Assembly: GCF_902652985.1 (NCBI RefSeq)
Contig: NC_047019.1
Span: forward strand, 29,450,001 to 29,514,000
Origin: Pecten maximus
Lineage: Eukaryota
DNA length: 64,000 bases
Direction of reading: 5' to 3'
Notes under the pieces: generated by a model
Database searches by the model: none
Seen by the model: the letters and a program-made list of their open reading frames with translations, nothing else
What the model was told of the DNA's origin: nothing
Part shown: positions 28,025 to 63,114 of the stretch, one piece after another
How the letters are laid out: each line of letters starts with the position of its first letter
Numbering within the stretch: the stretch's first letter is position 1
Program-made: the position numbers and the translations under genes

Positions 28025-28100
28025 TCAAGTCCAATATTACACTCACGGTTGTGGGGTCATGCAAGTCCAATATTACACTCACGGTTGAGGGGTCAAGTGT
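28025..28100 (+). repeat. Short tandem duplication in vestigial intron 2
   Basis: CAAGTCCAATATTACACTCACGGTTG(T/A)GGGGTCA x2. Confidence 0.85.
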
Positions 28101-30805: not shown

Positions 30806-31827
30806 GTAAGTATACCGTGTTATAAAACTGGTGCTATAAAGTCATTGTATTCCTCATCTGTGTAAATTCTGTGACTTAATATTCTTAAAAAGAGAGATTT
30901 ATTCGAATTAGGCTGAAATTTAATTTTAGTGTCACGGAGCGTGATGATTCATATACAAAATTAAACCTTAAACAAATGGGGTGAATTTGTTTCACAAATA
31001 GGAAATAAAAATAATTAGTGGTCAAAATATTAGCTTCTTATGCAGTTTGATGGGGGGAAATAATGAAATCACCAAAAAAAGAATATATACATTGAGGAAT
31101 GGAAATTAATTCCTCCCACATAATCGGGGATATTATGCTTTTGACAAAAATATGTTTCCGGGAAAAAAATCGCCGTGGGCCGATTCAGCCCTCCTATGCA
31201 CCACCTCCTTTGTTTAGTTTAAAATCCTGTTTTAGTCCTTTGTTTTGGATTGCGACACCTTGTTGTCGATGTCTACTGAATCAATCTCAATTCTCAATTC
31301 AAGTTTATTCCGAAATCCTTACCGCCCATAGATATACGTGGTTCAATACATTAAACATACAGTCATACATATTTGGAGAGTTTTTCTCATGCCAAGTAGT
31401 AACATAAACATCTTTGTATAACAAACAGCAAACAAAGACATATCAGTACAAGAAAGTTTAGCCTAAGTTAAATTTAAGTTTACAAATTGTTGAATCAATC
31501 AACCAAGTTTGATAAATACATGTCGTGCAACATCATCAATTGCATTTGTATTGTACAGACATACAGACAGACAGATGGATTTTCCAGGGAAGATATTTTG
31601 CATTCAAAATAATATATGAAGTACATATTAATTTTAAAGAATGGATTAAAAGTATTTTCTTTCAGCTAAATCAAACACCATATATTTTCCGAAACTAAAT
31701 CAAAAGGCAAAGTAACATCTTAAGTGTATTCGTTGTGATTTTGTTACATTTTCCATTTTTATCAAACGGATATAATCAACTTCCGCTGTGAATCATAGTA
31801 TTTTACCTTCGCCATTTTATTTTACAG

Positions 31828-31874
31828 GCCTTGAGTACCAACTCCAATCGGCACGACGAGAACTGTGTTGGTGA
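31828..31874 (+). CDS. vg: vestigial-like terminal coding exon 4
   Basis: TTTTACAG acceptor, phase 1, reads GLEYQLQSARRELCW-stop. Similar to the invertebrate Vg C-terminus (GLE..Q....KDLYWF). Confidence 0.85.
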
Positions 31875-41545: not shown

Positions 41546-41590
41546 TGGTATATATTTACATTTACACTGCAGCCCCACTATATAACTCTA

Positions 41591-41858: not shown

Positions 41859-41949
41859 CAAATTCAACATGAAGCGCTAGACAACAGATCAGATGTTGAC
41901 AACTGATTAAAATAACAAACAAGCAGACTTCTCATATCCACAATGCTAT

Positions 41950-42381
41950 TTATTCTGTGGTCATTGCCGATGCGCTCGTCCCCTCTGCGGTGTTCGCCGC
42001 ATCCATGGAGTTGCCTGAGGAATTAAGATTGAGATCGTCTTGTTCTTTATTATCATTTGCCTGAACTTGAACCTTATTCGGTTCATCATTAGTGTCAGTC
42101 TTAACAATTTTGTCGGCGGTATCATCATGATGATCTATCTGATCTTTGGCCAGACCACTTTCTTCCTCTTTTTTCGCATCACTTTCCAAGAACTTCTCCC
42201 ACTTGGACAACCGTTCCTCTCTCTCTGCTTCCGACTCTTCGATTTCAAACTTGGTTCGTCCGTCCCAATTCTGTGCCATGACACGCCTCTTTGAGAACCA
42301 TCTGTGGTGAAGAGCAGCTATACAACCATCAGCCGCTTCTGCAGTCTTGAAATAAACCATCATCACACCGTCGGGGTGGTT
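41950..42381 (-). CDS. HTATSF1: HTATSF1 terminal coding exon 7 (UHM end with RWF motif, acidic tail)
   Basis: NHPDGVMMVYFKTAEAADGCIAALHHRWFSKRRVMAQNWDGRTKFEIEESEAEREERLSKWEKFLE. Contains the UHM R-X-F motif; ends at TAA. The seven exons sum to 1554 nt = 517 aa + stop. Confidence 0.96.
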   Translation of the reverse strand, partial: NHPDGVMMVYFKTAEAADGCIAALHHRWFSKRRVMAQNWDGRTKFEIEESEAEREERLSKWEKFLESDAKKEEESGLAKDQIDHHDDTADKIVKTDTNDEPNKVQVQANDNKEQDDLNLNSSGNSMDAANTAEGTSASAMTTE

Positions 42382-43011
42382 CTGAAATGACCAAATGAAA
42401 TATTTCATTGATATTCAAATAAACATTACATTTGGAATGGTTAAATGTGCTACAACGCCGACAAAGAATTTTCATGATCGAATCTTGTTACAATATACAG
42501 TACCAACAGTTAAAAGTTTAGCTCTGTAACCACTCTCCAAAAAGGGTGAGGTTCTCTTTTTATCTTAAATAAGTGAATAAGTAACTAATCGCATATCGAC
42601 AAACTGTTTCCGTGTCCAGACTCTCTATATTCCGCAAGTACCACCCAGTTATACATGCGGTCATTTTTGTGAATTAAATATATTTCTATACCATGGGTTC
42701 CATTCAAATCATTTCGGGACAAACAGCGTTTACGTTGTCAGGGATGTTACATCTTCCGGTGTCTAACATGTATCCTTCGGTTAAAACAAAATATACGGTT
42801 GACCAATGGATTGACCTATATATACAATATACATGTACATGTCTAGTTATTTGAATGTGTAATCACTGTTATGAAGTTCATTGTTAATTTAGCACATGTT
42901 AAATCACACTCTCTGGAGACGGCATCGACTGTAGGCTTCCACTGTTTCAATTGTGACGCCATGGCTTCATGATGGCGCATTGTTACATCACCAACGAAAG
43001 AGGTATGTAGT

Positions 43012-43169
43012 AAAAATATCGTCATGTTAGGTTGTTTTCAGTCCGAGAAAGGCTGTTTTTCAAATGCTTTGCAAAATATCTCTCCGAATATATAGCTAAA
43101 ATATCGTCAAGTCAGATTGTTTTCCGTCAGAGAAAAGATAGTTTTTCAAATGCTGTTCAACATATCTCT
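43012..43169 (+). repeat. Diverged ~84-bp tandem duplication in HTATSF1 intron 6
   Basis: AAAATATCGTCA....TTGTTTTC.GTC.GAGAAA.G...GTTTTTCAAATGCT....AA.ATATCTCT x2. Confidence 0.8.
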
Positions 43170-43331
43170 GCAATTAAAGCAATATGACATTTGTATATTC
43201 TAAACAATAGCTTCACAAATCTCATATGCAATTAAAACGTACTATTTACTAGCATCTGTGGAATCGAAGCTTGTTAATATATGATAAGAATGAGAGGAAT
43301 ACAACTGCATTCAACTGTTTTAAAAACTTAC

Positions 43332-43421
43332 GTCGAACATCTTAACATTTTTCACTTCTCCATATCTGCTACATTCATCTCTGACATCGTCTCTGAGATC
43401 ATTAATCAATGTAGGCTCCTC
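43332..43421 (-). CDS. HTATSF1: HTATSF1 coding exon 6 (UHM middle)
   Basis: EEPTLINDLRDDVRDECSRYGEVKNVKMFD (UHM acidic helix, EC.KFG.V-like). CTGCAG acceptor, GAC|GTAAGT donor, 90 nt, phase 0/0. Confidence 0.94.
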
Positions 43422-46400
43422 CTGCAGAGAGAGAACGACAACGTAACATTAATTCAATGTCGAACAAATTGTATGAAAGTAGCACATTAAAAAAACAACA
43501 ACATCGTTATGATTATATTTATCTATGTATCAACTTAATAAAATTAATCAAATCTTTAATAACATAGTTTCCAAATTGATAGACTGTGAATTAGTTTTGA
43601 TTGTTCCCAGTTTTCTCTAAAATGTCTATCAGGATTTAAAAAGGAAGAAGAAGAAAAAAACTCTTAATGTAGACCTGCATGGTACGAAAGGACTTGATAC
43701 TGATATAAATTCAGGAGATGTATTAATTCCGTGATATAGTCAACATGACAAATGTAGGCATAGGATAGTTAGAAGAATATAAAATAAGTTCGTATATTTA
43801 TAACAAGTCCAAATATTCGTACGGATTTAATCGTACCAGGAAAGTTAAAAGTAAATTGAAAATAATACATCCTGGTAGGAAAATATAAATATCCCACAAA
43901 TTATTCTATCTGAGACCGACAACTGGTGAGGTTACAGATATCCTGACAGAGATATAGAAAGACCTATATCGTATTCATGTTCTCTAGTAAATAGTTACCA
44001 TTCCCCACTCCCCAGATGTACATTCCACGTACCCCGGGAATACGGCACGTATAACTAATAGTAGTAGCATAGCATGTATGTACGGGTTAGAATGATCTGA
44101 GGGAAGGGAACGTCACATTTGTTACGGAGTTACTCGGGGTATTCCGAGATTTGTGACCTTTATTATATCTGGGTATGATTTATATGTGCAGTCATGAATT
44201 AACTGGTCTTCTTAGTATTCCAAAAAGCATGAAATATGTCATAACTTGTAACTGAATATCTTACCGGTAGAACAGAAGCGTTTACCAAAAACTAGCATAA
44301 TAAATAAATAATAACAAGAGGAGGAACCGCGACTGTGACAATAGCAATGTGGCAGTTCATGTCGTCGCTCTAGTACATGTGAAAATACAAACATAAAGCA
44401 ATACCCTCTACACGTAGTTTATGTCGTTTATTTATGTGAAATGTGTTTCATTAATCAAAGTCAACCTAGGTTGTATATATGTAAACATAGGACACAGGTA
44501 TGTGCCGCCGTCGACATGATTAGTACACCACACACGTATGAGAAAAACAAAAATATGAGAATGGGCCACAAATACAAAGGCGTGTGTGACGTTGATGATG
44601 AAATTTCACTTAAAAAAGAAGTAATACCGAAGTGTAAACAAACTCGAAATTCTACCTCAAAATCGATGAAACAAGACAAAACAAACAACCGGAGATTCAA
44701 AACAGACATCCTTGAAAAAATATAAATAGTGGCAGGTGTTCCGCAAGAGTTAGCGTTTTCTGATTCCTCAACAACACCGGAATATAAATCTAGGTGACAT
44801 CAAAGTAACATTCATATCACGAGATACAACACCAGACAGACATACAATAGAATATCCAGGTATACGAAAGAGCATCGAACACCTCGACCTTAATATCAAA
44901 CAACAAAAAAGGAACATTTCTTAATGAGGCCAGAAATCGACCATAAATCATCATCATGATCTTCCTCAACCTGTGTCGTCACTCGAAACAATGTTACACG
45001 TTTTATCAGTCAGCAATAAACATCTATTATGGAATTCGTCGTATTGAAAACAAATAGATGACATGCAGTATATATAGATTCAACACAAAAAGTTTAATAT
45101 TCACTTTTTCGCTAAAGGTTGTATTAGCGTATAGTTCTTCAACCTTTACCACAAGTTTCTGATATATAACCATCACTGTACTATACAACGGTAAAGCGCA
45201 AATGTGAAACATGTAGAATTATATGATACAAAATGGGTGTGTTCACATGTACTATTATCACCAATATTCAGAACCATTGTTTGAGGTACTCATTTTGTTG
45301 GGATGATTTATAGCTACAAATGCATGTTTTATGGGTCTACATATACATGCAAACAAAAGGATATCACGAATTGTTGCATTTCTACTTATCACTCAAACCA
45401 AAAAAACCAATAGAATGTAATAAAATATCTATGAACACAACACTTAAAACGACTGCTTTTCTTGTGGAGCAACATATCGCAATGGGTTTTAGATAAGAAG
45501 CAGACATTTGCCGTTTATGTATTTCAGTAACAGATGAAATCGTACGACTGGAATACCTATTAATATATACAATAAAACCCAGTTTTGTTTGATTCTGTTT
45601 GCGACACAACCCATCACTTAGCCTCCCGCTGCTTACCGTTCTTCCATAAAACCAAACATCGCATGCTTGTGCGGACTTGTATTCACTTACACGTCCTATG
45701 AAGCCAATTACAATTCTATCACGGCAAATTCCTTCACGTGAGTCTACATATCAATTTGCTAACAACCTCATGCGCATTCAGATGTGAAATGGACGCATTA
45801 ATGTTTTAGGGGACACCAAAAATGCGAAAAGCTTGCGCAGCACTATGCCCCTGTTGGGATGGAAATGACAAAATTCCAGCATGCAAAATACCACGGCCAT
45901 TTTGCGACATCTTTCTTACATAAATCAAATAATTGAATTACCTTCTCCCAGTATTGTGTAATTTGTTTTTTGAAATCGGACCCTTGGTAGCATTTGTCTT
46001 GGAGCAGACGACACGTGTAGCTCCCCGACCTGACAGCCTCGTGCAGATGGCATGCATACCTGGGATTACAAGCGCGAGCAATAATGGTTTTTTGACGGAA
46101 CCCGATCCTGCCAATTATTGTGGATATTACATCTAGCCTCTTTTCCATTCATACATAATGGCTGACTTTTAACCAATTTTCTTACAGTTTGCTCACGGAA
46201 ATATTTTCCTTGACAGCGACATATCTTTCTCGACCTGTTCTCCAACTGGATCCCGGTTTTGAAGTCTGTTCTCCATGTGCAGTTGTGTCGAAAATCGGAT
46301 TTATTTTCTAACCCAACAGTTAATTACTTCAATTACTATTAACGTCCATTAAAGCAGCATTCTTGGTTATAATGAAGTTGCATAAAAAGAGCACTGTCCC

Positions 46401-46459
46401 TTCGCATTACACGTGTTTGCGTCTTTGTACATGCCGAGTTGCACCTAATGTTTGTCTTT

Positions 46460-46697
46460 TACGCGTCTGTTGTACCTGCTGTTTGTGTGTATGTCAAGTT
46501 CTACCTCATGTTTGTGCCATGTGAAAGTCGTGTTCCACCTGATGTTTTTATCTTATGAATGTCGTGTTTCAACTGATGTTTTTATCTCGTGTATGTCGTG
46601 TTCCACCTGCTGTTTTTGTTTTGTTTATGACGTGTTCGACCTGATGTTTTCTGTCTTGTGTATGTCGTGTTCCACCTGATGTTTTTGTCTTGTGTAT
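46460..46697 (+). repeat. ~33-bp degenerate minisatellite
   Basis: TGTATGTCGTGTTCCACCTGATGTTTTTGTCTTG-like units, ~6-7 copies. Confidence 0.8.
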
Positions 46698-47269
46698 GCA
46701 TATAAATGTTTTTGATTAATTCGATATGGTATATCATTTTATCCAGTATCTAACAATATTTACAGTTACCCTCATACCGGAAGAGATTCACATTGAAAAA
46801 ATAAATTATATGTCAAACATTAATTAGCAATTAAAAGGACCTGTAATTTATTCAGTTCAAAGCGTTTTCAAATACCAACCCACTAATTATAATGCATCAG
46901 TAAAACATTTTCAATGAGATTATATTATCCGAAGTAATGGTTTGATATTGGAAATATATAAATATAATATAGGGAAGGGGAAGAGAATGTACCAGGCATT
47001 ATTGTCAAATATAAGGTCATATCAAATAATATTAGAAAAAAAAGAAAGTGAATTTAAGATAAATTATATACCAAATAAATAACCCCATTTCAAACACGAG
47101 AAAATAATTTTATATTGTATATCACATTAGTAAATATATACCAAATTGATAACCGAACGGTATATAAATTACTATACACTGTGTCGGATATCATAAACAG
47201 ACTAATGTTCTTATATTCTATTTCAGTTAAGTAAAATTATGAAACTCAATAGCATACACAAAATAAATA

Positions 47270-47730
47270 GCCATATATTGTATACCAGATAAATGACTCA
47301 ATACATCAAACCAGATAACCCTATATTGTATACGAGATTAATGGCTCGATATTTTAAACCAGAAAAAAAATCATATATTGTATACCAATTAAAATGACTC
47401 AATATTACAAACCAGAAAAATAACCTTTTATTGTATACCATATAAATGACTCAATATTTTAAACCAGTAAAATATCCGAAGATATTGTACACAAGATAAA
47501 TGGCTCAATATTATAAATAAAACAGATAACTCTACATTGTATACAAGATAAATGGCTCAATAATATATATACCAGACAAATAACCCTATATTGTATACCG
47601 ATTCAAATGTATACCAGATAAATGACTCCGTATTATAAAGCAGACATATATTGTATACCAGATACCTGGTAAGTTACCCAATATTATAACAAATAGTCCT
47701 ATATTGTTTATCAATTACGTGATTCAATGT
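47270..47730 (+). repeat. Degenerate ~50-60-bp repeat
   Basis: ATATTGTATACCAGATAAATG(A/G)CTCAATATT..AAACCAGA, ~7-8 copies. Confidence 0.75.
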
Positions 47731-50700
47731 TATATTCCATCAAATAACCAAAATATTATATTAGATAACTATCAATACCAATGGCTATAAAGTTACATGT
47801 AATATAACTGCTATTTTGTATGTTGGTATTTTCCCCGCTAACACACACATAAGTTTTGAAACCTTTCATCCTTCATGACTCTCAGAAATGGACATTAAAA
47901 TTTCACGTGTTTACAGCCAAGGGCCTCCCTTTACGACAAAGCCAATAACTTATACTAACCACAGACATAGGACCACCTTTCACAATTTTATGTCACTTTA
48001 TTTCTGTAATTAAGAAATACACATTAAACTAAATAACAAAATAAGCACATTTCATGGTGCAATTTCAAAATCATTTGCACATAGAAGTTAATTCGATACA
48101 CCCAGGAATTTTCTCATTTCTGAAAAAACTGTAACTTCCCAATCCAAATTGGACAACTTTTCCGTGTCATTTTCACGATGCCGTATCGTATCCACAATTA
48201 ATTCAAAACTTGCCATAGACATTTTTTACATATGACAAGTTACTTTGATGTGGGTAGGAGCCAAATTTACACAGTTACACAAGCGAAATTGTCTCCCAAT
48301 GGGGTCTAGGTAATTGTGGGGATGGCCACAGTAGTCAAGCGCCCTTCATCTCCTTAATTTACATCTGAGAAAAATCTAAATTTAATAACTCCCTTTCTGG
48401 GCTTTAGGTAATTGTTATTGGGTCCCTAAAACATACCCTAAGTAATATCAACGCTACAAATCTACACATATAGACAAATTATTCGCTTACAAACAGGACT
48501 GGTTTCATAGGTACAGGGGGTAATATCCTCAAGTAGTCTAATACAGTACTGGAATTAATTCACAACTTGGGGTTAAGTAGCGATACACAGTAAATAATCG
48601 TCCATTTAAATCTTACTTGTGATGTCTCATTAAACATAAGCCCAGTTACAAGTAACCCCCACAGATCTCGCTATCCTTACTTTTTCTTTTTCTCTGCGGC
48701 CAGATTAAACATCTAACTTCACCTCCACGGTAAGAAATCTACCTAGAGCTTATGTGCAGTTAATAATTACATTTCGGGACAAGATATAGTGCAAACTCTG
48801 TTTTTCCCACACTAAAATTAGACTTACAACTGTTCCGAACCAGCTTTGGAATGATTAATTAGTTTTTAATGTTCCCAGAAAAACAAAATATGTGCCATTC
48901 AGAGTAGATTTCAGTAAAATAAAAATGCTTATCCTACACGTTACTAACTACTCTGTAAGTCGGTTGCCTCATAATTGATTACAAAACTACACTGGGCAAA
49001 TCCGCTGAACATTTAAACAATTTATATAATAACAAATCTGAACATTAATTTGGATATCATTCTATCTCATTATTTTTATTATAATTAAACATGATTTTTT
49101 TCTGACAATTTTTTAGGAGAAATATTCTTCAGATGATATAAACACATGCCTTATTAAATTAAATACATTTTACAGTAATACCTCATCTAAAACACTGCTT
49201 AACTAGTAAATTGTTGCACGTACATTGATTTGGCAAGAAATATGATGACTGTTTTTTTCAACACAAAAATAATTTTACAATAAACAGCAAAGATTTCTGC
49301 AAAATTTGAAATAATTGTATTTGAAATAGGAATTTCTAATTAAATACATCTTATATGCGGTTAGACCCGACGAAACCGTACCAGTGTACGGTTTGACGTT
49401 AGACATACGTTGTTAGTTAAAAAAATGACATTGTTAGAAACAACGATAAACAAACTGAGTGTATCATATATATATATGACGTGGGGATATGTTTGTTTAA
49501 TTCTAGTTTAACATTCATTATTCCGTACATAATGTATACATTTTTGAGAGTGTTTTGTAAAATTGATTTCGAGCTACATTGTAATATTGTCTTCGCTTAT
49601 TATCAATTTTAAAAGAATAGATTTTTCATCACCTCAGAAAATAAGTGCTTTCATTTTCATATGAAGTCATTTCGTGTAAAGTAATTTTAAAAATTTAAGT
49701 CATTAATTAGAATAAACATTAGAATGGTTAAACACGTTAAAAATAGCACCTCCAATCTGCAAAACTAAAATTCACACCAAAAGATAAAACTTCCTTAGGT
49801 GCCAAATTCTATTACATATAAATACAAAATTTTCTGGACAAATCTGGAAACAATGTTTTACGATATATATATTAAATTTAACATATTTAATTATAATTTA
49901 TTTTATTTCCTCGTTAAACAGGTATTTCATGTACAGCAAAGTCGTTACTGTAAAAATACCATTTAGCCATTGGATTTTGTCATTGTTCGTGAATGGTTAG
50001 TCAGTACTACAGACCAATATATATAGACAACAGGAATGCGGACAGGCAAACTGTTTTGGTTGAATGTGAAACATTATACAAAGATGTTTACTAACTAACT
50101 GTGAAACCATGTAAATGATATGGTTGTTACTGTCCGAGAAAGCGAGACGAATTGGGGAGTAGTTCGGACGGTGACAGTTTCTTTATCGCAGATTCTCTAC
50201 AGCAGGGTAGGGGTTCTCAATGAAGCAAACTAAATATCATATGACCAACTATCAACAAAACAACACCACACAAAATATCATCAACCCCTTCCCGTGAAAG
50301 AAACAAACTCACATACTCAAATACCAGCCATCAGATCAGTTAAAACCTCAGAAACACTTAATAGCTTATTCTAAATCTAATAAAAAAATTAAAAACAGAT
50401 TCAAACTAAGTATGTAGAACTCTTGGACTCGGACATTCCTTTCAAATTGGGAAAGGAATTAATATAAACTTGCTTAAGCTTGTTTTCTATTTCTAAATTA
50501 TAAAAATGTATGTATATTTGAATTTTGAATAAAAATATTGTTAAACTAATAAGGCATTGCAAAGTAATATAGCTATATGGTAGCGCATTGATACATGTAG
50601 CTACTCCGGGATCCTATAACTAGTAAGTCCTATACCTACACCAAACACGTGTTTACCGTTAATATCTTATGCCGTACAGTCAGGAACTGAGTTGTGCTAT

Positions 50701-53029
50701 TCAAATGGGAAGTGAACATGAGTTTAGTAAGTCTACATACTACGGAGACAGGTATTGCTCCGATGTCAGAGAATGCTCGCGTCATACACGGTGTTCCCGT
50801 AATGACTTGAAGTCTACTACCAACTTACCAAGCCATTGTGCAGGTGGTGGCGTAACACACGTACTAGTTCATATTATTACATAAAATTAACATAATATCT
50901 GTTGCATAGGCAGGTGTTATGTCCTTGACCAGATGCTAAATCCCATGTCAACCCTACAAATATTCCCATCAATACCCGCACCATTGAATATTTAACGCCT
51001 TGTTCTCATACCGATAGCAACGTTTATAACAGCAGGTCTTACTGACACTAGTTAAATGTCATTGTTCCCCACATCAACCAAGATTTAGCACCAAAATACG
51101 TATCTGTTTCAATTAATCATTTTCTGGCTAAAATCCCATGTGATGATAAACACCCTGGTGTTTTGCATATGTCCACATAAAATAAAATAAATAAATATGG
51201 ATCGGGATCACTTAAACAACGAATCACACGACGTGACAAGCGTCTAACGAAAATATCACGAATCGTATCGCCAGTCAGGGCGCGGGATCTCTGGTCTAGA
51301 GGAGGAGGGACATGGGAATCGAAGTTACTTTAGGTGAATTTGGACCTATCACGATGTTTTAAAGCGATTGTTAGGCGTTATGGTAAGATCAAAATTTCCT
51401 ATTTCAGTTTAGGAACTACCTGAATTAAATGAATTTTAGAACAGATGTCAGAACTTTCAGATCTGTTTTATGGATCCCGCCCCCATTTTTCGTGATATTC
51501 TTCAGATAACGATAATAATGTTATCTGATGGCATACATGGGTTTTTCTTGAGAAGGAAAGAAACAATGTGCTACCTGTATTATTTTACCGTTTTTACATA
51601 ACTGGTATAAAGTCTTTGGGCATAAAGAAGACTTTATGACGATTGACTGGAATTTTTATAAGAATGTCGCTCGCAAGCTTATTATCAAAGTAATCAAAAT
51701 TCGTGATAATATCAACGACGGTCGTCTATTTCCTCGATCTATTTGGTGTTACTGATCTCCAATATCATATCCCCCATTTTCAAGTGTTTGCTTGGAAATT
51801 TAAATCTCGGCCGAGTCCCCAAACCTCGTCTCTGTGGTGAAGCCGTATCATGTGGGAGGTAGGTAATTTGATCAACACACCAATAGACAAGTTTTGGGTG
51901 TATTCATTTCAAGATGTTTTCCTTAGATGTAAACCAGGTACTTGACAAGGTTAGTTTGTCACCGCTAACGGTGCTGATGAGATGCCACTTGAAACAAGTA
52001 GCCTCCCTTGGTGTAGAAATTCCAAGCTGTTCAGGGAGGTGCAATTGATATGGGAAACTGCATATCTATAATGTCATTGGACAATATCAAAACCATTCCG
52101 CATTCTTAGTTTTTCAAACGACTGACTTTTGCTTTGTTTATGTTTAGACCACATACCACACTTCTTTATAATATTGAACGCAACTGGCCACTTTTATGGG
52201 AACTGAATTCAGTATATAACACCGAGTGTGCCTTATTTTTATTTAGTAGCATTCCAGTAAGAAGGTTGTTTGATCTTTGTAATTAGGTGGTCAGAATTAT
52301 ACTGTGTGTACGTATACTAGTACAGCTATGCTAAAACGAATAATTAGTACGAATATTAATATAGGTACTTACAGCTACATCGTTATATGTATGTATATAT
52401 ATAAATTTGAGGTAGATAAAGAATTAATGATATCAAAAACATAAAGAAAAAATGTTCGAAAGCTTTAGTACACAGGAAAGTTGATCCAAATGATATATGC
52501 TGGTTTGAATTTTCTGTTGAATTTACTAGAACATTCTAATTCAGAAGAGACTCGATATTCAAACTAAGAATAAGGATAACCACTTCCATCAGATTTATTT
52601 CTGTATATAATCGGTATAAGTGATTTGGAGAGAAAATATCAGTATTTAATCGTTATTTATCCAGATACACCTAAAAAGTTCCGCCCTAGGATAACATGAA
52701 TATTAAAAACTATCTTATTGGTTTATCATCTCTAACGTAGAAATAAAGCATTAAATCTTGTGGTTATAAAGACTAGCCTATCAAAAACCTCTTAGTAAGG
52801 TTTTCAGCCAAACTATATAAACTGTCATTGTTTTCAGTATGACGTGATATCCCCATTAATTCTTGCACCGATCACGAGTCGCTCATTTAATTTTCTATGC
52901 TGTTTCACATGTGAAGAAAACATTTATGATTTCAGTCTGCCCACTTCATATTCTTGTTATTTCGGGAAATGGCGACACTTTTGTTGTTTTGGGTTTTTTC
53001 TTTTGAATCAACGTTAAGCTTGAACTCCA

Positions 53030-53146
53030 ATGTCTTTTGTACAGTCCTTTGTCCTTGTGTGTGGAGGATGTCATACAGTTGTCTGTTGTATAGTCCTTTG
53101 TCCCTGTGTGTGGAGGATGTCATACAGTTGTTTTTGTACAGTCCTT

Positions 53147-53181
<35 letters not shown>

Positions 53182-53682
53182 AGGATGTCATACAGTTGTC
53201 TTTTGTACAGTCCTTTGTCCTTGTGTGTGGAGGATGTCATACAGCTCTTTTGTACAGTCCTTTGTCTGTGTGTGTGGAGGATGTCATACAGTTGTCTTTT
53301 GTACAGTCCTTTGTCTGTGTGTGGGGGATGTCATACAGTTGTCTTTTGTACAGTCCTTTGTCATTGTGTGTGGAGGATGTCATACAGTTGTCTTTTGTAC
53401 AGTCCTTTGTCATTGTGTGTGGAGGATGTCATACAGTTGTCTTTTGTACAGTCCTTTGTCATTGTGTGTGGAGGATGTCATACAGTTGTCTTTTGTACAG
53501 TCCTTTGTCTGTGTGTGGAGGATGTCATACAGTTGTCTTTTGTACAGTCCTTTGTCCCTGTGTGTGGAGGATGTCATACAGCTCTTTTGTACAGTCCTTT
53601 GTCTGTGTGTGTGGAGGATCTCATACAGTTGTCTTTTGTAAGTTCCTTTGTCCTTTTGTGCGGAGGATGTCATACAGCTGTC
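53030..53682 (+). repeat. 49-bp minisatellite (~13 copies) with embedded (TG)n at ~53151-53179
   Basis: Unit GTCTTTTGTACAGTCCTTTGTCATTGTGTGTGGAGGATGTCATACAGTT. Confidence 0.96.
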
Positions 53683-54291
53683 TCCTATTTCATGTTATTT
53701 CGTGTTACATTTCTAAACATATTTGTTATAAAAATGTCACATTGATATTAACAGATTTTCTAGAGCACATATTGTGAATATCTTTGGACAGGTCTATTTC
53801 GGTGCCGATCTCAGGAATTGATACACCAGGTGAACCTGTGTTCACAACGTATTGAACATGACATCAATGGTGGCTCATGGTGGAGGGAGTTGTAAAGGAT
53901 ACACATCACAGGTAATATATCCCAACAAAAGTAAGGCATACTCGACATAGTTTCTAGATAGCTTTGTACACAATCAGTATATCACACTGATTTTAAGTAT
54001 ATAGTAGCCTCATTGTCAAGTAAGGGACAATTATCTTGATAACCTGTATCAACAACATTTACTGATCCCAATGGTGAACTTTCACTGTCAATTTTCCCAT
54101 ATTATTTTTATCACATCACTGATAATTGATAGACCAGTTATGACAACAAACACATCTTAGGATTACAGAAGTGTAGTGAACAGGTAGTGTGTATAAAGAA
54201 GAAAAGGTGAAAACGTTTACACTGTAATCTGTACAGACAAGAAAATACAAAAATCTGTGAAAATAATCAGCAAGTCATTACTTAACCTCTT

Positions 54292-55866
54292 CACAAGTCA
54301 TGAGTGTCTATCTCTACACAAGTCATCAGTGTCTACCTCTACACAAGTCATCAGTGTCTACCTCTACACAAGTCATCAGTGTCTACCTCTACACAAGTCA
54401 TCAGTGTCTACCTCTACATAAGTCATCAGTGTCTACCTCTACACAAGTCATCAGTGTCTACCTCTACAGAAGTCATCAGTGTCTACATCTACACAAGTCG
54501 TCAGTGTCTACCTCTACACAAGTCGTCAGTGTCTACCTCTACACAAGTCGTCAGTGTCTACCTCTACACAAGTCGTCAGTGTCTACCTCTACACAAGTCG
54601 TCAGTTTCTACCTCTACACAAGTCGTCAGTGTCTACCTCTACACAAGTCATCAGTGTCTACCTCTACACAAACCGTCAGTGTCTACCTCTACACAAGTCA
54701 TCAGTGTCTACCTCTACACAAGTCATCAGTGTCTAACTCTACACAAGTCGTCAGTGTCTACCTCTACACAAGTCATCAGTGTCTACCTCTACACAAGTCA
54801 TCAGTGTCTATCTCTACACAAGTCATCAGTGTCTACCTCCACACAAGTCGTCAGTGTCTACCTCTACACAAGTCATCAGTGTCTACCTCTACACAAGTCA
54901 TCAGTGTCTACCTCTACACAAGTCATCAGTGTCTACCTCTACACAAGTCATCAGTGTCTACCTCTACACAAGTCATCAGTGTCTACCTCTACACAAGTCA
55001 TCAGTGTCTACCTTTACACAAGTCGTCAGTGTCTACAGCTACACAAGTCGTCAGTGTCTACCTCTACACAAGTCGTCAGTGTCTACCTTTACACAAGTCG
55101 TCAGTGTCTACCTCTACACAAGTCATCAGTGTCTACCTCTACACAAGTCATCAGTGTCTACCTCTACACAAGTCGTCAGTGTCTACCTCTACACAAGTCG
55201 TCAGTGTCTACCTCTACACAAGTCATCAGTGTATATCTCTACACAAGTCATCAGTGTATATCTCTACACAAGTCATCAGTGTCTACTTCTACACAAGTCA
55301 TCAGTGTCTACTTCTACACAAGTAATCAGTGTCTACTTCTACACAAGTAATCAGTGTCTACCTCTACACAAGTCATCAGTGTCTACCTATACACAAGTCA
55401 TCAGTGTATATCTCTACACAAACCGTCAGTGTCTACCTCTACACAAGTCATCAGTGTATATCTCTACACAAGTCATCAGTGTCTACCTCTACACAAGTCA
55501 TCAGTGTCTACTTCTACACAAGTCGTCAGTGTCTACCTCTACACAAGTCGTCAGTGTCTACCTCTACACAAGTCATCAGTGTCTACCTCTACACAAGTCA
55601 TCAGTGTATATCTCTACACAAGTCATCAGTGTCTACCTCTACACAAGTCATCAGTGTCTACCTCTACACAAGTCATCAGTGTCTACCTCTACACAAGTCG
55701 ACAGTGTCTACCTCTACACAAGTCATCAGTCTCTACCTCTACACAAGTCATCAGTGTCTACCTCTACACAAGTCATCAGTGTCTACCTCTACACAAGTCA
55801 TCAGTGTCTACCTCTACAAAAGTCATCAGTGTCTACCTCTAGACAAGTGATCAGTATCTACCTCTA
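54292..55866 (+). repeat. 25-bp satellite, ~63 copies
   Basis: Unit ACAAGTC(A/G)TCAGTGTCTACCTCTAC. Confidence 0.99.
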
Positions 55867-57243
55867 ACATTATTATATTGACAGGAAAATATATTACCTG
55901 CAGGTGCATAATGATTTAATACTATATTGATGAATTAAAGCAAAAAAATGTGCTTAATCCCTGTTGAGGCAAGAACAACATTAAAATCGTGAATATTTTG
56001 GTAAAATAAGACAAACAGTTCAATTTGAGGTTTCTTTTAAGGATGATTGACAGTAAAAAGTGATTTTCAATTCCATTATTCACATTTTAGCAAATGTATA
56101 CTGTGCTTTAGAACACCTAATTCATTAAACAAAATCCATGTTAGGGTATACTTTCCCCTACTAAAATCTAGGTTAGGATGTATATGTGACATTTTCACTA
56201 ACCTCAATCCTGGTAGGGATATGTATATATACTGATTTCATTTTCCACAATCCAAGTAGGGATATGTACATATGCTAATATCCTCAAATAGGGAAATATA
56301 TATGAAATTTTTTCCTAACTAGAATTCAGATGTGCATATTTCATTTCCGTCAGTCTAAGTAAGAAAAGTGTAACAGATATATACAGCGTGAAATTTAATC
56401 ATTTTGAATTACAAAATAATTCTAATTTTAATTTTTGTGATTAGCGTTTATTGTATCTTTTAAGCAATCTGTTCCAAGGGAGATAACCAAAATTAAACCA
56501 TACAAGAACGAAAAACCTGATATTGGAAGGGAGGCAACCCAATCAAAAACGCATTGTATAATGGTGTAACTTCCATAATATTTACACAAGTACTAGCTTC
56601 CAAAAAAGTTAAGAGGACTACCAACAGCATTATCTATGAGTAAGCATTATAGTTAAGTTTGAGATAGATGGGTATGTTGAAGCTTTTGAAGTCAGTGGAG
56701 TTTCTCTCATATGCATATCTCTCCCAAGTCTATCAATTTCCGACCATAACCAAAAAAATCAGCACCACTAATCATGCGATAATAGTACAATGTCCAACAA
56801 TCCTGCTGGAACAATTGTATCTCTGATTTTATCAACCACATGATGTTTTTATTGCAAATAATTTCCCCTACTACAAATGATGACATCACATACTGAAGGT
56901 AACCAATCACGTAGTATAAGCAATGCTAGCGAGGCAATCAAAGTAGATAGATCATTCATATACATGTGCAATCCCCACAATATGGCTGGTACAAAGACCA
57001 AAACTAATGCTACCATTCCTGGATGGTAGTGAAACCTTTCTCTGATGTTAAAAGTATTAATGTGTGATTTATGACATCAAGGGAATTTCGTTTTGTTGAG
57101 TGTATCAAGTAACTTAAGAATGTTCAGAATTTATTAAATACATACCTTGAAGATGAGTATTATCACTGCTTACCTAAAGGCTCAAAAATATCTTAATATA
57201 TACCAATTACTACATAGTTACAGTATATACTGTCATAACTTAC

Positions 57244-57352
57244 TTCAAAATCATTTGGATCAAACATGTTCTTTAAGACAACAACTTTCTCATTTTTGGG
57301 TCGAACAGAACCTTGTCCAAGCTCTTTTTTCTCTGGTCTCCAGTCAAACAAT
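57244..57352 (-). CDS. HTATSF1: HTATSF1 coding exon 5 (start of UHM/RRM2)
   Basis: LFDWRPEKKELGQGSVRPKNEKVVVLKNMFDPNDFE. Phase matches exon 4; phase-0 donor GAA|GTAAGT. Confidence 0.95.
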
Positions 57353-58012
57353 CTGTGTAATTATAACACATATACATTAAATAACATTTCAATTAGTTAA
57401 CTAACTAGTGCCATCAATCTGACAGAACTAGTGAGTGGGATCAAAGAAATGACGAGATATCAAGCTGATACATCAAGCCGACATGTGATAAATCTTGGAC
57501 AAAGCACCAGTACAATCGGAAAATTAAATCAAAATAATGGTTGTGATATCGGAAAATGAAGACCTCAGGTAATGAAAACCATGGTATGAATTGTATGAGT
57601 GAATAAGTAAGTGTATTGGAGTATTGGCTTTATGAAATCTGATCATAAACAAATACAAATCTTATTATTACATGACAGTGAATTACAGAGGAGGAACAAC
57701 TACCTCGAGCTCTATGAAACCATATTAGAGTTGACTGTCCATGGCCAACTCACCAGTTATCCATATTCTTATGTAATGTGATTGTTTTATATTTTTTCTT
57801 TTCTCATAATTTGATAAATTTCTGTCTGCAATAGTGTTATATATCAACTCATTAAATCAAAATGCATCTAATGAACACTCATTATCAGAGATAAACCATT
57901 TTTCCACTAAGGGGAACAACTCAAATACATTTTTCCATGAACTCTAATAACAAAATTTCACCATGCATTTAGAATTTTTTCATCATTTGGCATTTCATAA
58001 ATATGTTCTTAC

Positions 58013-58182
58013 TTTTCTTGTTTCTCCTTGAACTTCCGCTTGTCTTTGTTGCTGAGTTTTTTTCTCCGTTTGCTGGGATCAAAATCTCCCTTCATAGTGA
58101 ACTTGGCCAGCTCTACCTTGATCTTATGACCTCTGAGCTCAGAATCATCCAGAAACTTCCTCGCAAGTTCCACAGACTCAAC
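58013..58182 (-). CDS. HTATSF1: HTATSF1 coding exon 4 (RRM1 C-part and linker)
   Basis: VESVELARKFLDDSELRGHKIKVELAKFTMKGDFDPSKRRKK...KQEK. TTCAG acceptor, phase-2 GTAAG donor. Confidence 0.96.
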
Positions 58183-58377
58183 CTGAACACAGTATAAAAC
58201 TATTCCATGTAAAAGTCTTACCAAAATTCACAACACTTATAATTCACAATGGTAAGTGATACATTACATTAGTATCAAAATGATAAATAGTTCTCTCCCC
58301 TGTTGTGAAAATGTGATATACAAGAAAACAGCTCTTTACTCAGGTTCAATATAAATTCCTCGCATTTCTCCCCTTGT

Positions 58378-58462
58378 GAGGTGGTAAATTAAAGTGATTA
58401 CAGACTTGCCTTTCACCTTAGCAGTCTGTGTTTGATTCCCTGATCGTATGTGAAAGGTATAC
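58378..58462 (+). mobile_element. Possible decayed tRNA-derived SINE head
   Basis: ..GCCTTTCACC..GCAGTCTGTGTTTGATTCCCTGATCGTATGTGAAAGG contains a B-box-like GTTTGATTCC (GTTCGATTCC after CpG decay). Confidence 0.3.
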
Positions 58463-58675
58463 TTATATTCATCTTTAGTCCTAAGAAATAAGGTAAATCT
58501 TCATACCTTACAGTAAACACCTTTCAGTAAACAATCATCAATTTCCCTCCCCATATCACCTACTCATCTATCCATTCTAGGATAATGTTCCTTCTTTTCA
58601 TCAACTGTAAGTCTGTTCTGTTTAGGGTTTCCCTAACAGGTATATTAAGTCCTACTGATCTTTTGTCCCCTTTGG

Positions 58676-59830
58676 ATACCTTACCCTGGTATACCTTACC
58701 CTGGTTAACCTTACCCTGCCATACTTTACCCTGGTAAACCTTACCCTTGTAAACCTTATCCTGGTAAACCTGACCCTGGTATACCTGACCCTGGTATACC
58801 TTACCCTGGTATACCTTATCCTGGTATACCTTACCCTGGTAAACCTTACCCTTGTAAACCTTATCCTGGTAAACCTTACCCTAGTAAACCTTACCCTGGT
58901 AAACCTGACCCTGGTAAACCTTACCCTGCCATACCTTACCCTGGTATACCTTACCCTAGTAAACATTACCCTGGTAAACCTTACCCTGGTATACCTTACC
59001 ATGTTTAACCTTACCCTGCCATACTTTACCCTGGTAAACCTTACTCTGCCATACTTTACCCTGGTAAACCTTACCCTGGTATACTTTACCCTGGTATACC
59101 TTACCCTGGTATACCTTACCCTGGTAAACCTGACCCTGGTAACTACCGTTTAACCTTACCCTGGTAACTTTACCCTGGTAACCTTACCTGCATACTTATA
59201 CCCTGGTAAACCTTACCCTGGTATACCTTATCCTGGTATACCTTACCCTGGTATACCTTACCCTGGTATACCTGACCCTGGTAAACCTTACCCTGGTAAA
59301 CCTGAACCTGGTATACCTTACCCTGGTAAACCTTACCCTGGTATACCTTATCCTGGTATACCTTACCCTGGTATACCTTATCCTGGTATACCTTACCCTG
59401 GTATACCTTATCATGGTATACCTTACCCTGGTATACCTTACCATGGTAAACCTTACCCTGGTATACCTTACCCTGGTAAACCTTACCCTGGTATACCTTA
59501 TCCTGGTATACCTTATCCTGGTATACCTTATCCTGGTATACCTTACCCTGGTATACCTTACCATGGTATACCTTACCCTGGTATACCTTACCTTGGTAAA
59601 TCTTACCCTGGTATACCTTACCCTGGTAAACCTTACCCTGGTAAATCTTATCCTGGTATACCTTACCCTGGTATACCTTACCCTGGTATACCTTACCTTG
59701 GTAAATCTTACCCTGGTATACCTTACCCTGGTAAATCTTACCCTGGTATACCTTACCCTGGTATACCTTACCCTGGCAAACCTCATCCTGGTAAATCTTA
59801 TCCTTATATACCTTATCTGATAAATCTTAC
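58676..59830 (-). repeat. 15-bp satellite (~75 copies) starting at the HTATSF1 exon 3 donor
   Basis: Plus-strand unit CCTTACCCTGGTA(T/A)A; the minus strand reads CCAGGGTAAGGT(A/T)TA. Confidence 0.98.
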
Positions 59831-60039
59831 CTTTATATAACAGCAGCGCCCATCACCTTTCGGATTTCCTTCACTATCCTTGTAAAGTTTGAGCTTGAGA
59901 CCTCGGCTGAGTGGGTCAGCCATGATGAGGCCGTATTTGCCCATCAGTTCTCTGAATTCGTCGTCAGTGATATCCAGTGGCAGTCCAGACACATATACAT
60001 TGGTGTTCTTTGTTTCATCAACATCAAACCAAGAAGGAG
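59831..60039 (-). CDS. HTATSF1: HTATSF1 coding exon 3 (RRM1, N-part)
   Basis: WFDVDETKNTNVYVSGLPLDITDDEFRELMGKYGLIM...KLKLYKDSEGNPKGDGRCCYIK. CTGTAG acceptor, AAG|GTAAGA donor. Confidence 0.97.
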
Positions 60040-60660
60040 CTACAGAGACAAGGCAAAATAGAATGTACATATAACTTACAATTTACATTGACTCAAATTT
60101 AAATAGTTTATATATGAAGTAAGATGAAAATCTTTAACATGAACATTTAGTCATTGACCCAAGGAATTTAAGCATTGTCACAAAGCATGTTCATATACTA
60201 ACTTTGAAATCCAAATCAAAGACTCCGCAGTAAATTATCAATAACTAATATACATGACTGCACCATTGAAATACACTTTAAGTAATGGCAGAAAAGAAGG
60301 TTCAGAACATGCTTAGAAATGGTAGGCAAGTCAGCATGATATCGTTTTGGTACAAGTTCATTTTAACTACACAGCAGTGCCCTTGAATAATTAGCCTGAT
60401 TTGATTTATTTGTCATTTACCATTATCTTTAAAGGCATTTACCTAGGAATTGGTCAGTTATTTATGTGAACCAGTCAGATAGCTAACAGGAAGCCTGAAG
60501 TTAGTACATGGTGTGTGTATATGTCATCACAAATTTCAATTTTTCTCAAATGGTGCAGAGAAAATATGACAGTATAATGGAATCAAAGCCCTTGGATTTT
60601 GAATATATTCAATTCTCTGACAGACTATTAAACTCAAATTTATCAAACATTTTTAATTAC

Positions 60661-61078
60661 GTTCTTCTGGCTTTTTGGGTTCAGATGCCTTTTTTCGTTT
60701 CTTTCCCTTCTTTTCCTGCTGACTTTCATCTGCTTCCTTTTCCTCTGAGTTTTCTTGGTTGTAATAATCATATCCACAATATTCTACTGCTTCTTTGTGT
60801 CCATAGTAGTATGCATAGTAATCAAAATATTTCTTCCTGTACTCATCACTGTTTTCATCAACCTCCTCCTCACTTCCTTCCTCTCCACTGCCCTTGGCTT
60901 CCGTACCAGGATCCCTCTGACCACCATAGTACTTCTTACAGTACTGATCATACCATTCCTTGTACTCAATGCTGTTGATGTCTGCTGGAGGAGCTGGGAA
61001 ATCTGAAGTATCAGGCCTAGGGCTGGCCTCTGAAGCACCATAGCTCATCTGATATCGGGCTATAAAATCATCATCAAT
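60661..61078 (-). CDS. HTATSF1: HTATSF1 coding exon 2
   Basis: TTATAG acceptor. IDDDFIARYQMSYG (human ITEDFIATYQANYG), then an acidic/Tyr-rich segment and basic KKGKKRKK (NLS-like). Phase-1 donor C|GTAATT. Confidence 0.92.
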
Positions 61079-61240
61079 CTATAACAAAAGAAATGTAAAA
61101 GTAAATCAATTGACCCTTCAATGAATCAGTTAAGCTCTAAAAAGATCTATTAATACTATAATTTTTTTCTTTTTCTTTTTGGTATATATATTCCACAGAA
61201 AGAGATCTGGTCAAAATATCAAAAATTTAGATAGACCTAC

Positions 61241-61366
61241 CTTTGGAAACCATGCTTGTTTCTCATCATTCCATTCATACTCGGTCCCATCCTCATCAAC
61301 TTTGGTTTTTCTCTTTTTCTGTTCTTCCTCTTGTGCCAGCTGTGCCTCAAAATCAGATTCCTCCAT
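61241..61366 (-). CDS. HTATSF1: HIV Tat-specific factor 1 homolog, coding exon 1
   Basis: MEESDFEAQLAQEEEQKKRKTKVDEDGTEYEWNDEKQAWFPK matches the Tat-SF1 N-terminal F..QL...E and YEWD..K.AWFPK motifs. Phase-0 donor AAG|GTAGGT. Missed by the ORF track. Confidence 0.93.
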
Positions 61367-62436
61367 TGAATAGACAGTGTGTAAGGGAGGTAGCCCTTGA
61401 AAAAGTTATTAACACAAGTACATGAGACTAGTACACTGCATCATTGTACAAGTTTATATAAATGCACTTCCAATATACCAATTCTTAATATTTTGTTCGG
61501 TGGTCCTGAAATCCCCATGTGATCTTAAATTTAAGGAAAATTTACTTTGGAAAGATGGAAAATGTGTGGATGTATTTTTCATATTACATAAGACAAGTAA
61601 CACGGATCGAATAGTGAATTGATGCACAAGTTAGTATGTTTTCCCTATTCATCCATCATCATCTGTAAACTAATCATACAAGATACGAGAACATTCATAC
61701 TGGACCTGAAAATAATTGAATTATAATTAATGGCTACACAAACATACATCAGATTCCCTTGTGACCACTGATAATTATTTATAAGGCAAGCCTAGTCACA
61801 GGAGACTTGACACATTCCTATAACCCAGAATGGAAGATGTCATTTTTTATTCAATTGTAAGTGATCTTGGGTCGGATCAAGGGTTAAATATAGTAATCTG
61901 GGAGTCAGACCCCGGGGCAAATATTATTCTGGGAAATACAAAAAGTGTCAAGCCCGTGGTCTAGTAGTAGTACTTTGTAATGTAAATTGATTGTACTATG
62001 TCCAACATGTCCAGTATTGCCTTTAGTGCATTCCATAATCTTCTTTAAAGGTTTTACACAATAGGTCTGATAGGCTATTAACTATTTACATGAACTTCAT
62101 TTTAGTTGCATCCACTAGTACTATAAACTATTAGAAAACATACCCCCAATATCTATATGCAGCTAAACACAAATGCTTTAATACAAACACACCAATCTAT
62201 ACCACATAAGCTCGTGACAGACGTCTATGCTGAGTTTAGTATCAGGGATGAATAGCATATGCTGTGTAGATACACATAGATGGGAATGATTTTACAGAAC
62301 GTCAGCCACACGTTTTTCTGGACCGGTTGTTTATTATTCTATTTTTATACTTTCTCGCTATAACAACAGGAACTTCAGTTGAAAATTAATTTCTTATTAC
62401 GTAGAGAAAGCAAATATGCAACAATAGCTCCATTAC

Positions 62437-62525
62437 CTTCCTCTTACAGACAGAGAGCACAAAATAATTAAACCGCAAACAATGTGACTTGAATTTCCTC
62501 GATATTGGCGGCCATATTTTCTCAA
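62437..62525 (-). promoter_or_regulatory. Putative TSS region / non-coding first exon of HTATSF1
   Basis: Minus strand reads AAAATATGGCCGCC (YY1/Pho-type motif typical of housekeeping TSSs). Donor GAAG|GTAATG at 62437/62436. CpG density rises here; candidate acceptor TTTTCAG near 61706. Confidence 0.5.
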
Positions 62526-63114
62526 CTGTCGTAATCTAGTCTAAACTAATGTCGTATTTTATAGCAAAAATTAAAAAAAAAAAATAAAAAGAGAAAAATA
62601 ATATATTCTTCAAGAAATGATGAAATATCGTTCAAATTTGGGTATTGGAGTTGTGCCAAAAATATATATTAGGCCTAGATTTCTACTATATTTCCCATAT
62701 TTTACGACAAACCTGGATCAAGGGAAGTAACTCTTACGTACTTACCGTGCTTTGTGGTTTCAAACTCCAATTTAGATCTACCGAAATCAGTATAGGGGAC
62801 ATACATAAAGGGATTAGAGATTCCAGTAGTTTGGAGACGGACATAGCATGAGCTTTTGTGCACTAAGCCGCGAAGGCGTGATTTCCACTATATAACTAAT
62901 ACTATATACATGTACCAGCGGGCATTAAGTAAAATTGAATAATTTTATTAAAGATCTGCTGATTGATATAAAATTAAGTTAACTTTTTCAAAATTGTTTG
63001 CTATTAAACTTGATCATTAGCAATGTAAATGTATTCAGCTTTTATTTGATTCCAATAGAAAAAAAAAAATCGGATGAAGACTTTTGGAGAAAACTTGCTG
63101 AAAAATAAGCTTTA

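What the first reader, a model, noticed from the sequence alone, without database searches (positions are those of the whole stretch)
41950..62450. CpG landscape switches in the middle of HTATSF1
Seen (rough by-eye count): about 11 CpGs in 55980-57200 and very few in 60100-62200, versus about 25 in only 44400-45060. Exons 6-7 are CpG-rich, the change lies near 53-54 kb, and CpGs return at the putative promoter (>62.2 kb). Known: invertebrate gene-body methylation depletes CpG in housekeeping genes while developmental loci stay unmethylated. Inference: methylation covers only the 5' ~9 kb of HTATSF1, and its 3' half lies within the unmethylated vestigial domain. The 49-bp and 25-bp satellites sit at the border.
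Basis: partly seen in the sequence, partly recalled or inferred. Interest (0 to 1): 0.7.

Follow-up and report, generated by a model that had tools for sequence, protein, structure and literature searches.

The report
Methylation footprint ends mid-gene beside vestigial
In a scallop, the CpG loss that likely marks long-term DNA methylation covers only the first half of the splicing-factor gene HTATSF1 and is missing from its last two exons, unlike 30 other genes checked, likely because those exons lie in the regulatory territory of the neighbouring vestigial developmental genes, a gene pairing that other scallops share.

Summary
Confirmed. With repeats masked, CpG o/e is 0.30 over 55.9-62.1 kb and 0.88 over 41.9-53.0 kb. 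The switch (52,976-54,011) lies inside the 13.8-kb intron 5 of scallop HTATSF1. RNA contigs splice across it, so it is one transcript. Synonymous sites agree (CpG:TpG/CpA 7:79 in exons 1-5, 19:34 in exons 6-7). Controls make it an outlier: 3 of 150 exon neighbourhoods in 30 other genes reach o/e 0.8, against 0.84 and 0.91 for exons 6-7. Depletion returns after every long gap tested, also in the 85-kb Islet bystander SCAPER. The satellites are chance neighbours (0.43 for a random point). Only the exons' failure to be depleted needs explaining. HTATSF1 and vestigial are also adjacent in two other scallops and listed consecutively on human X. Most likely, chromatin of the twin vestigial locus keeps HTATSF1's 3' end unmethylated in the germ line; this is inferred, as no methylation or chromatin data were seen. 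The scan's earlier notes held nothing on this.

The parts
53700..62200 (.). CpG-depleted block (inferred germ-line methylated 5' part of HTATSF1)
   Evidence: o/e 0.29 masked; edges from the changepoint fit
41900..53000 (.). CpG-undepleted 3' part of HTATSF1: distal intron 5, exons 6-7, intron 6
   Evidence: o/e 0.88; DNA contig depth of about 23-63 in most bins from 44.1 to 53.0 kb, one bin at 125-176, so mostly single-copy
52976..54011 (.). Switch interval inside intron 5
   Evidence: 2-log-likelihood interval
62437..62526 (-). Likely non-coding first exon and start region, where CpG returns
61241..61366 (-). HTATSF1 coding exon 1
   Evidence: the 7 exons give 517 aa identical to P0001
60661..61078 (-). 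HTATSF1 coding exon 2
59831..60039 (-). HTATSF1 coding exon 3 (RRM)
58013..58182 (-). HTATSF1 coding exon 4
   Evidence: RNA joint 57352/58013 in X7 and X10
57244..57352 (-). HTATSF1 coding exon 5, last depleted exon
   Evidence: loose end at 57243 carries exon-6 letters in X7 and X10; local o/e 0.31
43422..57243 (-). Intron 5, 13.8 kb, holding the switch
43332..43421 (-). HTATSF1 coding exon 6, not depleted
   Evidence: local o/e 0.84
41950..42381 (-). HTATSF1 coding exon 7 (second RRM/UHM and acidic tail), not depleted
   Evidence: local o/e 0.91; spliced to exon 6; one copy in G000
53031..53683 (.). 49-bp tandem array, within the switch interval; probably incidental
54285..55866 (.). 25-bp tandem array on the depleted side; one column is CG in 19 and CA in 40 of 62 units
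58676..59815 (.). 15-bp tandem array in intron 3
25974..31871 (+). vestigial-like gene a (exons 25974-26051, 27192-27464, 30389-30807, about 31827-31871), tail to tail with HTATSF1, its stop 10.1 kb from HTATSF1's stop
   Evidence: PF07545; tblastn with P0007; distances

Best explanation
The CpG depletion of scallop HTATSF1, likely the mutational footprint of germ-line gene-body methylation, covers exons 1-5 and ends inside intron 5, and the last two exons likely escape methylation because they lie in the chromatin territory of the neighbouring vestigial genes. Shown: the CpG pattern, the gene structure, one spliced mRNA across the switch, the rarity of the pattern among control genes, two vestigial paralogues next door, and the same adjacency in two other scallops. 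Inferred: methylated CpG decays to TpG/CpA over evolutionary time. Methylation is laid down with transcription from the promoter onward and fades 3-4 kb into intron 5. In ordinary genes it resumes at the next exons; here it does not. The likely reason is that a repressive (Polycomb-type) or enhancer-bearing domain of vestigial, whose stop codon is 10-11.5 kb from exons 6-7, blocks de novo methylation there in the germ line. The state would be old, since synonymous sites in the conserved UHM part also keep CpG.
For: Masked o/e 0.30 against 0.88, introns only 0.28 against 0.88. Synonymous CpG:TpG/CpA 7:79 against 19:34, p=9e-5, with no shift at non-CpG sites, p=0.30. The conserved codons 345-440 alone give 8:17, p=0.005. 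RNA contigs of two studies join exons 4-5-6, and one study joins exons 6-7 (X6 and X7 look like one data set). Controls: 3 of 150 exon neighbourhoods in 30 genes reach 0.8 (3 of 83; 0 of 26; 0 of 41). All 14 of 14 hits after gaps of 5 kb or more are at most 0.68, and 30 of 30 hits 15 kb or more into a gene are at most 0.73. The only two Vg_Tdu matches in G000 are both at this locus. The IAP gene converging on vestigial-b from 33.6 kb away, and SCAPER, 163 kb from Islet, are depleted to their last exons; this fits a short-range effect. vestigial and HTATSF1 have neighbouring accessions on one scaffold in Mizuhopecten (OWF41339/OWF41338, 443,668 bp) and Ylistrum (XP_060084346/XP_060084348, 173,575 bp). 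In Nematostella, remethylation is 5'-biased and slow where H3K27me3 or H3K9me3 is present (PMC13345969, section 10 read).
Against: No methylation or chromatin data were seen; CpG o/e is an evolutionary proxy. Undepleted DNA is the default (0.96-0.97 over 62.2-164 kb), so nothing in the sequence marks a vestigial domain or its edge. SCAPER, a textbook bystander, is depleted at 26 of 26 exon hits, also after 22- and 17-kb introns, so bystander status alone does not give this pattern. Control exons keep more synonymous CpG (222:860) than HTATSF1 exons 1-5, so exons 6-7 differ from them only modestly: p=0.013 against the last two hits and p=0.09 against distant hits. CpG-context polymorphism did not differ between the sides (3 of 39 against 5 of 40 listed differences, p=0.71). 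No second case of a housekeeping gene ending within about 12 kb of a developmental gene was tested. Only about 10 of the 30 controls had hits near the true last exon. Vestigial-a's third exon needs two frame changes in this assembly.
Confidence: 0.5

Rival explanations
1. Methylation is seeded from the 5' end with elongating polymerase and simply fails to be re-established beyond a long intron in this modestly expressed gene; vestigial plays no part.
For: 5'-biased recovery in long Nematostella genes (PMC13345969 section 10). CpG-rich patches of 4-10 kb occur inside long introns of controls. One control rises to 0.73 at its last hit and one hit reaches 0.79.
Against: Depletion returns at 14 of 14 hits after gaps of 5 kb or more and at 30 of 30 distant hits, and along all 85 kb of SCAPER. 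HTATSF1 spans only about 21 kb.
Confidence: 0.22
2. A shorter germ-line transcript ends by intronic polyadenylation near 54 kb, so transcription-coupled methylation stops there.
For: In Ciona, methylated domains fall off at the ends of transcription units (PMC3827831, passages). The tissues of the RNA runs laid here are not known to include gonad.
Against: In both RNA runs laid on 55,880-58,500 the only contig over exon 5 continues into exon 6, and none reads on into intron 5. A short form would lack the conserved second RRM/UHM (90% identity among close homologues). Contigs drop rare forms, so absence is not shown.
Confidence: 0.1
3. An independent unmethylated element unrelated to vestigial (internal promoter, antisense or nested non-coding unit) keeps the 3' half free of methylation.
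For: The 3' half is mostly single-copy DNA, and short low-depth RNA contigs lie on parts of the intron.
Against: Those contigs are 189-445 nt at depth 4-7, with no spliced joints supporting a second gene. An 11-kb flat profile is wider than the short CpG-rich zones at the 5' ends of control genes.
Confidence: 0.1
4. Artefact or recent structural change: satellites, misassembly, or a recent insertion or move of the 3' half.
For: Two arrays sit at the switch, and no read set was laid across them.
Against: The effect stands with repeats masked. Exon order matches the spliced RNA. Exon 7 has one copy, and no degenerate exon copies exist in 264 kb. The gene pair is adjacent in two other scallops.
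Confidence: 0.08

Closest known systems
Mosaic gene-body methylation of invertebrates (molluscs: PMC13333978 part 1 read, PMC5481141 passages; Ciona: PMC3827831 passages)
   Same: A broadly needed gene is CpG-depleted, its start region is not, and the developmental locus and intergenic DNA are not.
   Different: In Ciona the domain falls off at the ends of the transcription unit, and 30 control genes here stay depleted at their 3'-most hits. In HTATSF1 the footprint ends about 12 kb before the stop codon.
Genomic regulatory blocks with bystander genes (Irimia et al. 2012, PMC3514665, passages and section 9; Touceda-Suarez et al. 2020, PMC7530604, passages and supplement search)
   Same: A developmental regulator beside an unrelated housekeeping gene with an intron over 10 kb on the side facing it; adjacency kept across species.
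   Different: HTATSF1 has 0 hits in the 2020 supplement, and VGLL1-3 appear there only in the ohnologue table. Enhancers and conserved non-coding elements were not tested. The known bystander SCAPER shows no such split in this genome.
5'-biased methylation recovery in long Nematostella genes (PMC13345969, section 10)
   Same: Methylation favoured at the 5' end and opposed by repressive marks.
   Different: That is a transient recovery gradient after drug treatment; this is a standing step written into the sequence.

Membership tests
HTATSF1 / Tat-SF1 | Two RRM-type domains and similarity to human HTATSF1 | tested here: met
   PF00076 in 2 stretches; E 1e-97 to human HTATSF1 chains 7q3l_q and 6y50_q
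Invertebrate gene-body methylation | CpG-specific depletion with TpG/CpA excess in the gene body | tested here: met
   5' part only:
Invertebrate gene-body methylation | Covers the transcription unit to its 3' end | tested here: not met
   exons 6-7 and intron 6 at o/e 0.84-0.91
Invertebrate gene-body methylation | 5mC measured on the DNA | not testable with these tools
   no run among the 24 listed was labelled as bisulfite, most library fields being empty
Invertebrate gene-body methylation | Excess of CpG-context polymorphism in the methylated part | tested here: inconclusive
   5 of 40 against 3 of 39 listed differences, p=0.71; the tables were cut, 10 and 152 rows not shown
Genomic regulatory block | Developmental regulator next to an unrelated housekeeping gene | tested here: met
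   two Vg_Tdu genes beside HTATSF1
Genomic regulatory block | Long intron (over 10 kb) in the bystander | tested here: met
   intron 5 is 13.8 kb, but long introns are common in the controls too
Genomic regulatory block | Linkage conserved across distant lineages | tested here: inconclusive
   Met within scallops. Human: consecutive in two gene lists; strict adjacency and orientation are recalled. No species outside scallops gave both genes, and 0 of 27 metagenome loci held vestigial.
Genomic regulatory block | Conserved non-coding elements in the bystander intron | not testable with these tools
   no second animal genome was available
Genomic regulatory block | Enhancers in the bystander acting on the regulator | not testable with these tools
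   needs ATAC, 4C or reporter assays

The most novel reading that the evidence does not exclude
HTATSF1-vestigial is an unlisted gene pair kept since the bilaterian ancestor (scallop and human). Its bystander is epigenetically split in the germ line: a methylated housekeeping 5' half and an unmethylated 3' half annexed by the vestigial regulatory domain. Intragenic CpG steps would then map the edges of developmental regulatory domains in any mosaic-methylated invertebrate genome from sequence alone.
Probability: 0.25. Interest if true: 0.72.

Novelty: new variant of a known kind. Interest (0 to 1): 0.45.

Why it matters
Gene-body methylation in invertebrates is usually treated as a whole-gene property tied to transcription. 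A single transcript whose footprint stops midway, next to a developmental regulator, would show that local chromatin can override transcription-coupled methylation. It gives a natural locus to test this with existing scallop bisulfite data. It would also give a sequence-only screen for regulatory-domain edges and add a candidate ancient HTATSF1-vestigial pair. As it stands it is one well-controlled locus with an inferred cause.

Tried and rejected
Satellite composition as the cause: rejected by masking. Satellites as a border element: rejected as chance. Satellite CpG columns as a methylation probe: the 25-bp array has 19 CG to 40 CA, but the 40-bp array in undepleted DNA also has a column with 29 CG to 12 TG, and copies are not independent; 2 of 10 arrays gave too few units. 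Young high-copy insertion as the source of the CpG-rich intron: contig depth is near single-copy in most bins; a blastn against 800 kb of the genome found nothing but has little power. SNP context test: inconclusive. ELP4 as a second bystander control: its neighbour has an Alx-like homeodomain (label by eye) and only the 3' exons were located, all in depleted DNA. LMBR1 and the NT-C2 gene: exon maps too partial to use. Deep synteny by accession numbers: 20 of 150 listed HTATSF1 representatives were looked up, none from a species for which I had a vestigial protein. Metagenome loci: 27 with HTATSF1 relatives, none with vestigial. RNA bins without cover in intron 5 are no proof of silence. Paper searches that found no report of this pair or this pattern: (open-access library only). 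The supplement of PMC3514665, which lists the conserved pairs, could not be read and may hold this pair. Scan notes: nothing relevant.

Full report
Setting. The window is G000:C5:29,450,001-29,514,000. Seven exons on the minus strand (61366-61241, 61078-60661, 60039-59831, 58182-58013, 57352-57244, 43421-43332, 42381-41950) have canonical splice sites and give 517 aa. This is identical to P0001, labelled HIV Tat-specific factor 1-like of Pecten maximus. It has two RRM stretches and matches human HTATSF1 at E 1e-97. A non-coding first exon at about 62437-62526 is inferred from splice signals and from the length of an RNA contig.

Observation. With tandem repeats masked, CpG o/e is 0.30 in 55867-62100, 0.88 in 43422-53030 and 0.91 in 41950-43421. 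The best changepoints are 53,865 (52,976-54,011) and 62,213 (62,147-62,300), with a gain of 43 log units against at most 8 in 20 permutations on a coarser grid. Introns alone give 0.28 against 0.88 (p=7e-11). GpC does not change, and TpG and CpA are higher on the depleted side. At synonymous positions CpG:TpG/CpA is 7:79 in exons 1-5 and 19:34 in exons 6-7 (p=9e-5), while non-CpG C:T does not differ (p=0.30). The conserved codons 345-440 alone give 8:17 (p=0.005), so the fast-evolving tail is not the cause. From established knowledge, this is the footprint of methylcytosine deamination in the germ line; 5mC was not measured here.

One transcript. In RNA runs X7 and X10 (two studies) one contig joins exon 4 to exon 5 and runs on into exon-6 letters at 57243, and none reads on into intron 5. 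In X6 and X7, which look like one data set filed twice, exon 7 carries exon-6 letters at 42381. Exon 7 has one match in G000, and no other exon copies exist in 264 kb. DNA contig depth over the CpG-rich part of intron 5 is near single-copy except for one bin. Misassembly, a duplicated 3' end and a young repeat are therefore unlikely. A rare or gonad-only short isoform is not excluded.

Wider landscape. CpG o/e is 0.87-1.08 from -47 kb to 53 kb and 0.96-0.97 from 62.2 to 164 kb in window coordinates. Undepleted DNA is the default and depleted islands are the exception. Vestigial-a (25974-31871, plus strand) converges on HTATSF1, 10.1 kb stop to stop. A second vestigial lies head to head at about -17.5 to -22.3 kb. 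These are the only two Vg_Tdu matches in G000. Further left a BIR-RING (IAP) gene is depleted to its last exon (0.34 and 0.37, with a CpG-rich patch between), 33.6 kb from vestigial-b's last matched exon. Tandem repeats of 100 bp or more cover 29% of the 264 kb, and a random point is inside or within 1 kb of an array of 500 bp or more with probability 0.43. The satellites at the switch therefore need no explanation.

Is it unusual? Control exons were located by family searches and by tblastn for SCAPER. Masked o/e within 600 bp of each hit reached 0.8 in 3 of 83 hits in 12 genes, 0 of 26 in SCAPER and 0 of 41 in 17 genes. In that last set, one further window with expectation under 10 was dropped, and one merged hit was split by me into its two ends. 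HTATSF1 exons 6 and 7 give 0.84 and 0.91. All 14 hits after gaps of 5 kb or more were at most 0.68, and all 30 hits at 15 kb or more from the first hit were at most 0.73. Not every family match was used: the C14 P4-ATPase, single stray hits and small-contig duplicates were left out. Only about ten controls have hits near the true last exon. CpG-rich patches inside long introns are common, and in some of them depletion fades 3-4 kb past an exon, as it does past exon 5 here. So the oddity is not the switch but that depletion does not return at exons 6-7, intron 6 and the 3' end. Against this, control exons keep more synonymous CpG than HTATSF1 exons 1-5, so at synonymous sites exons 6-7 differ from controls only at p=0.013 and p=0.09. 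The polymorphism test was inconclusive.

Link to vestigial. In Mizuhopecten and Ylistrum the two genes have neighbouring accessions on the same scaffold. For human, one paper lists HTATSF1, VGLL1, CD40LG consecutively in Xq26.3 (PMC9116409, one passage). A preprint's X-linked landmark list has cd40lg, vgll1, htatsf1 in a row (10.1101/2024.10.30.620815, one passage). That they are direct neighbours with HTATSF1 upstream on the same strand is my recall; it would match HTATSF1 and vestigial-b here, with vestigial-a as an inverted copy between them. The pair fits two of the four predictions for a genomic regulatory block in PMC3514665 (passages and section 9); the other two could not be tested. 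HTATSF1 is absent from the supplement of PMC7530604. The supplement of PMC3514665 was not readable and may list the pair. Linkage in other phyla could not be shown. The known bystander SCAPER, 163 kb from Islet (homeodomain label by eye), is depleted throughout, so if vestigial is the cause the effect is short-range.

Mechanism and odds. Most likely (0.5), transcription-coupled methylation marks the 5' part, fades in intron 5, and cannot be re-established on exons 6-7 because vestigial's repressive or regulatory chromatin reaches them. In Nematostella, remethylation is 5'-biased and slow under H3K27me3 or H3K9me3 (PMC13345969, section 10 and passages). In Ciona, domains normally end at gene ends (PMC3827831, passages). 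Rivals: 5' seeding that fails after a long intron (0.22), a short germ-line transcript (0.10), an unrelated internal element (0.10), and artefact or recent change (0.08).

Other papers seen: PMC13333978 (part 1 of 5), PMC5481141, PMC11292947, PMC7530604, PMC12890961, PMC8715457 and 10.1101/2022.08.05.502661 (passages only). Nine searches found no report of this pair or of a mid-gene CpG step beside a developmental locus in molluscs; a tenth was for scallop methylomes. The library is open-access only.

Verdict. A real, well-controlled single-locus anomaly and a new variant of known mosaic methylation, with an inferred cause and a candidate old gene pair. Interest 0.45.

Noticed in passing
window 30389-30807: The third exon of vestigial-a aligns to the intact Mizuhopecten orthologue P0007 in three frames, with changes near 30,470-30,490 and 30,545-30,557. 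Three other scallops have intact proteins, so assembly errors are likely, but recent gene loss is not excluded.
   Followed up: partly
G000:C5:29,427,700-29,432,500 (L012-L013; window -22.3 to -17.5 kb): A second vestigial-like gene on the minus strand, head to head with vestigial-a about 43 kb away; 56% identical around the Tdu domain.
   Followed up: partly
G000:C5:29,375,965-29,394,143 (L016-L018): IAP gene (BIR, BIR, RING) converging on vestigial-b, CpG-depleted, with a 4-kb CpG-rich patch in one intron that holds a transposase-like fragment by eye.
   Followed up: partly
window 41550-41880: A very high-copy short interspersed repeat just past the HTATSF1 stop codon, with contig depth above 10,000 in DNA and RNA runs.
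   Followed up: no
window 58540-59830: The 15-bp array in intron 3 starts at the exon-3 donor and its unit resembles a splice donor; like the 'mirage' minisatellites noted elsewhere in this genome.
   Followed up: no
G000:C9:34,584,550-34,832,680 (L109-L134): SCAPER and an Islet-type homeobox converge in this scallop, 163 kb apart, with undepleted DNA between them: the known Islet-Scaper block.
   Followed up: partly
G000:C9:43,782,000-43,792,000 (L030): About 10 kb of CpG-rich DNA inside a long intron of a P4-ATPase gene, with depletion returning afterwards; nature unknown.
   Followed up: no
G000:C5 window coordinates 69089-69985 (L001:5089-5985): A 299-aa open frame 7 kb upstream of HTATSF1 in undepleted DNA, with only a weak Pfam hint (Mala_s_1-like, E 0.003).
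   Followed up: partly
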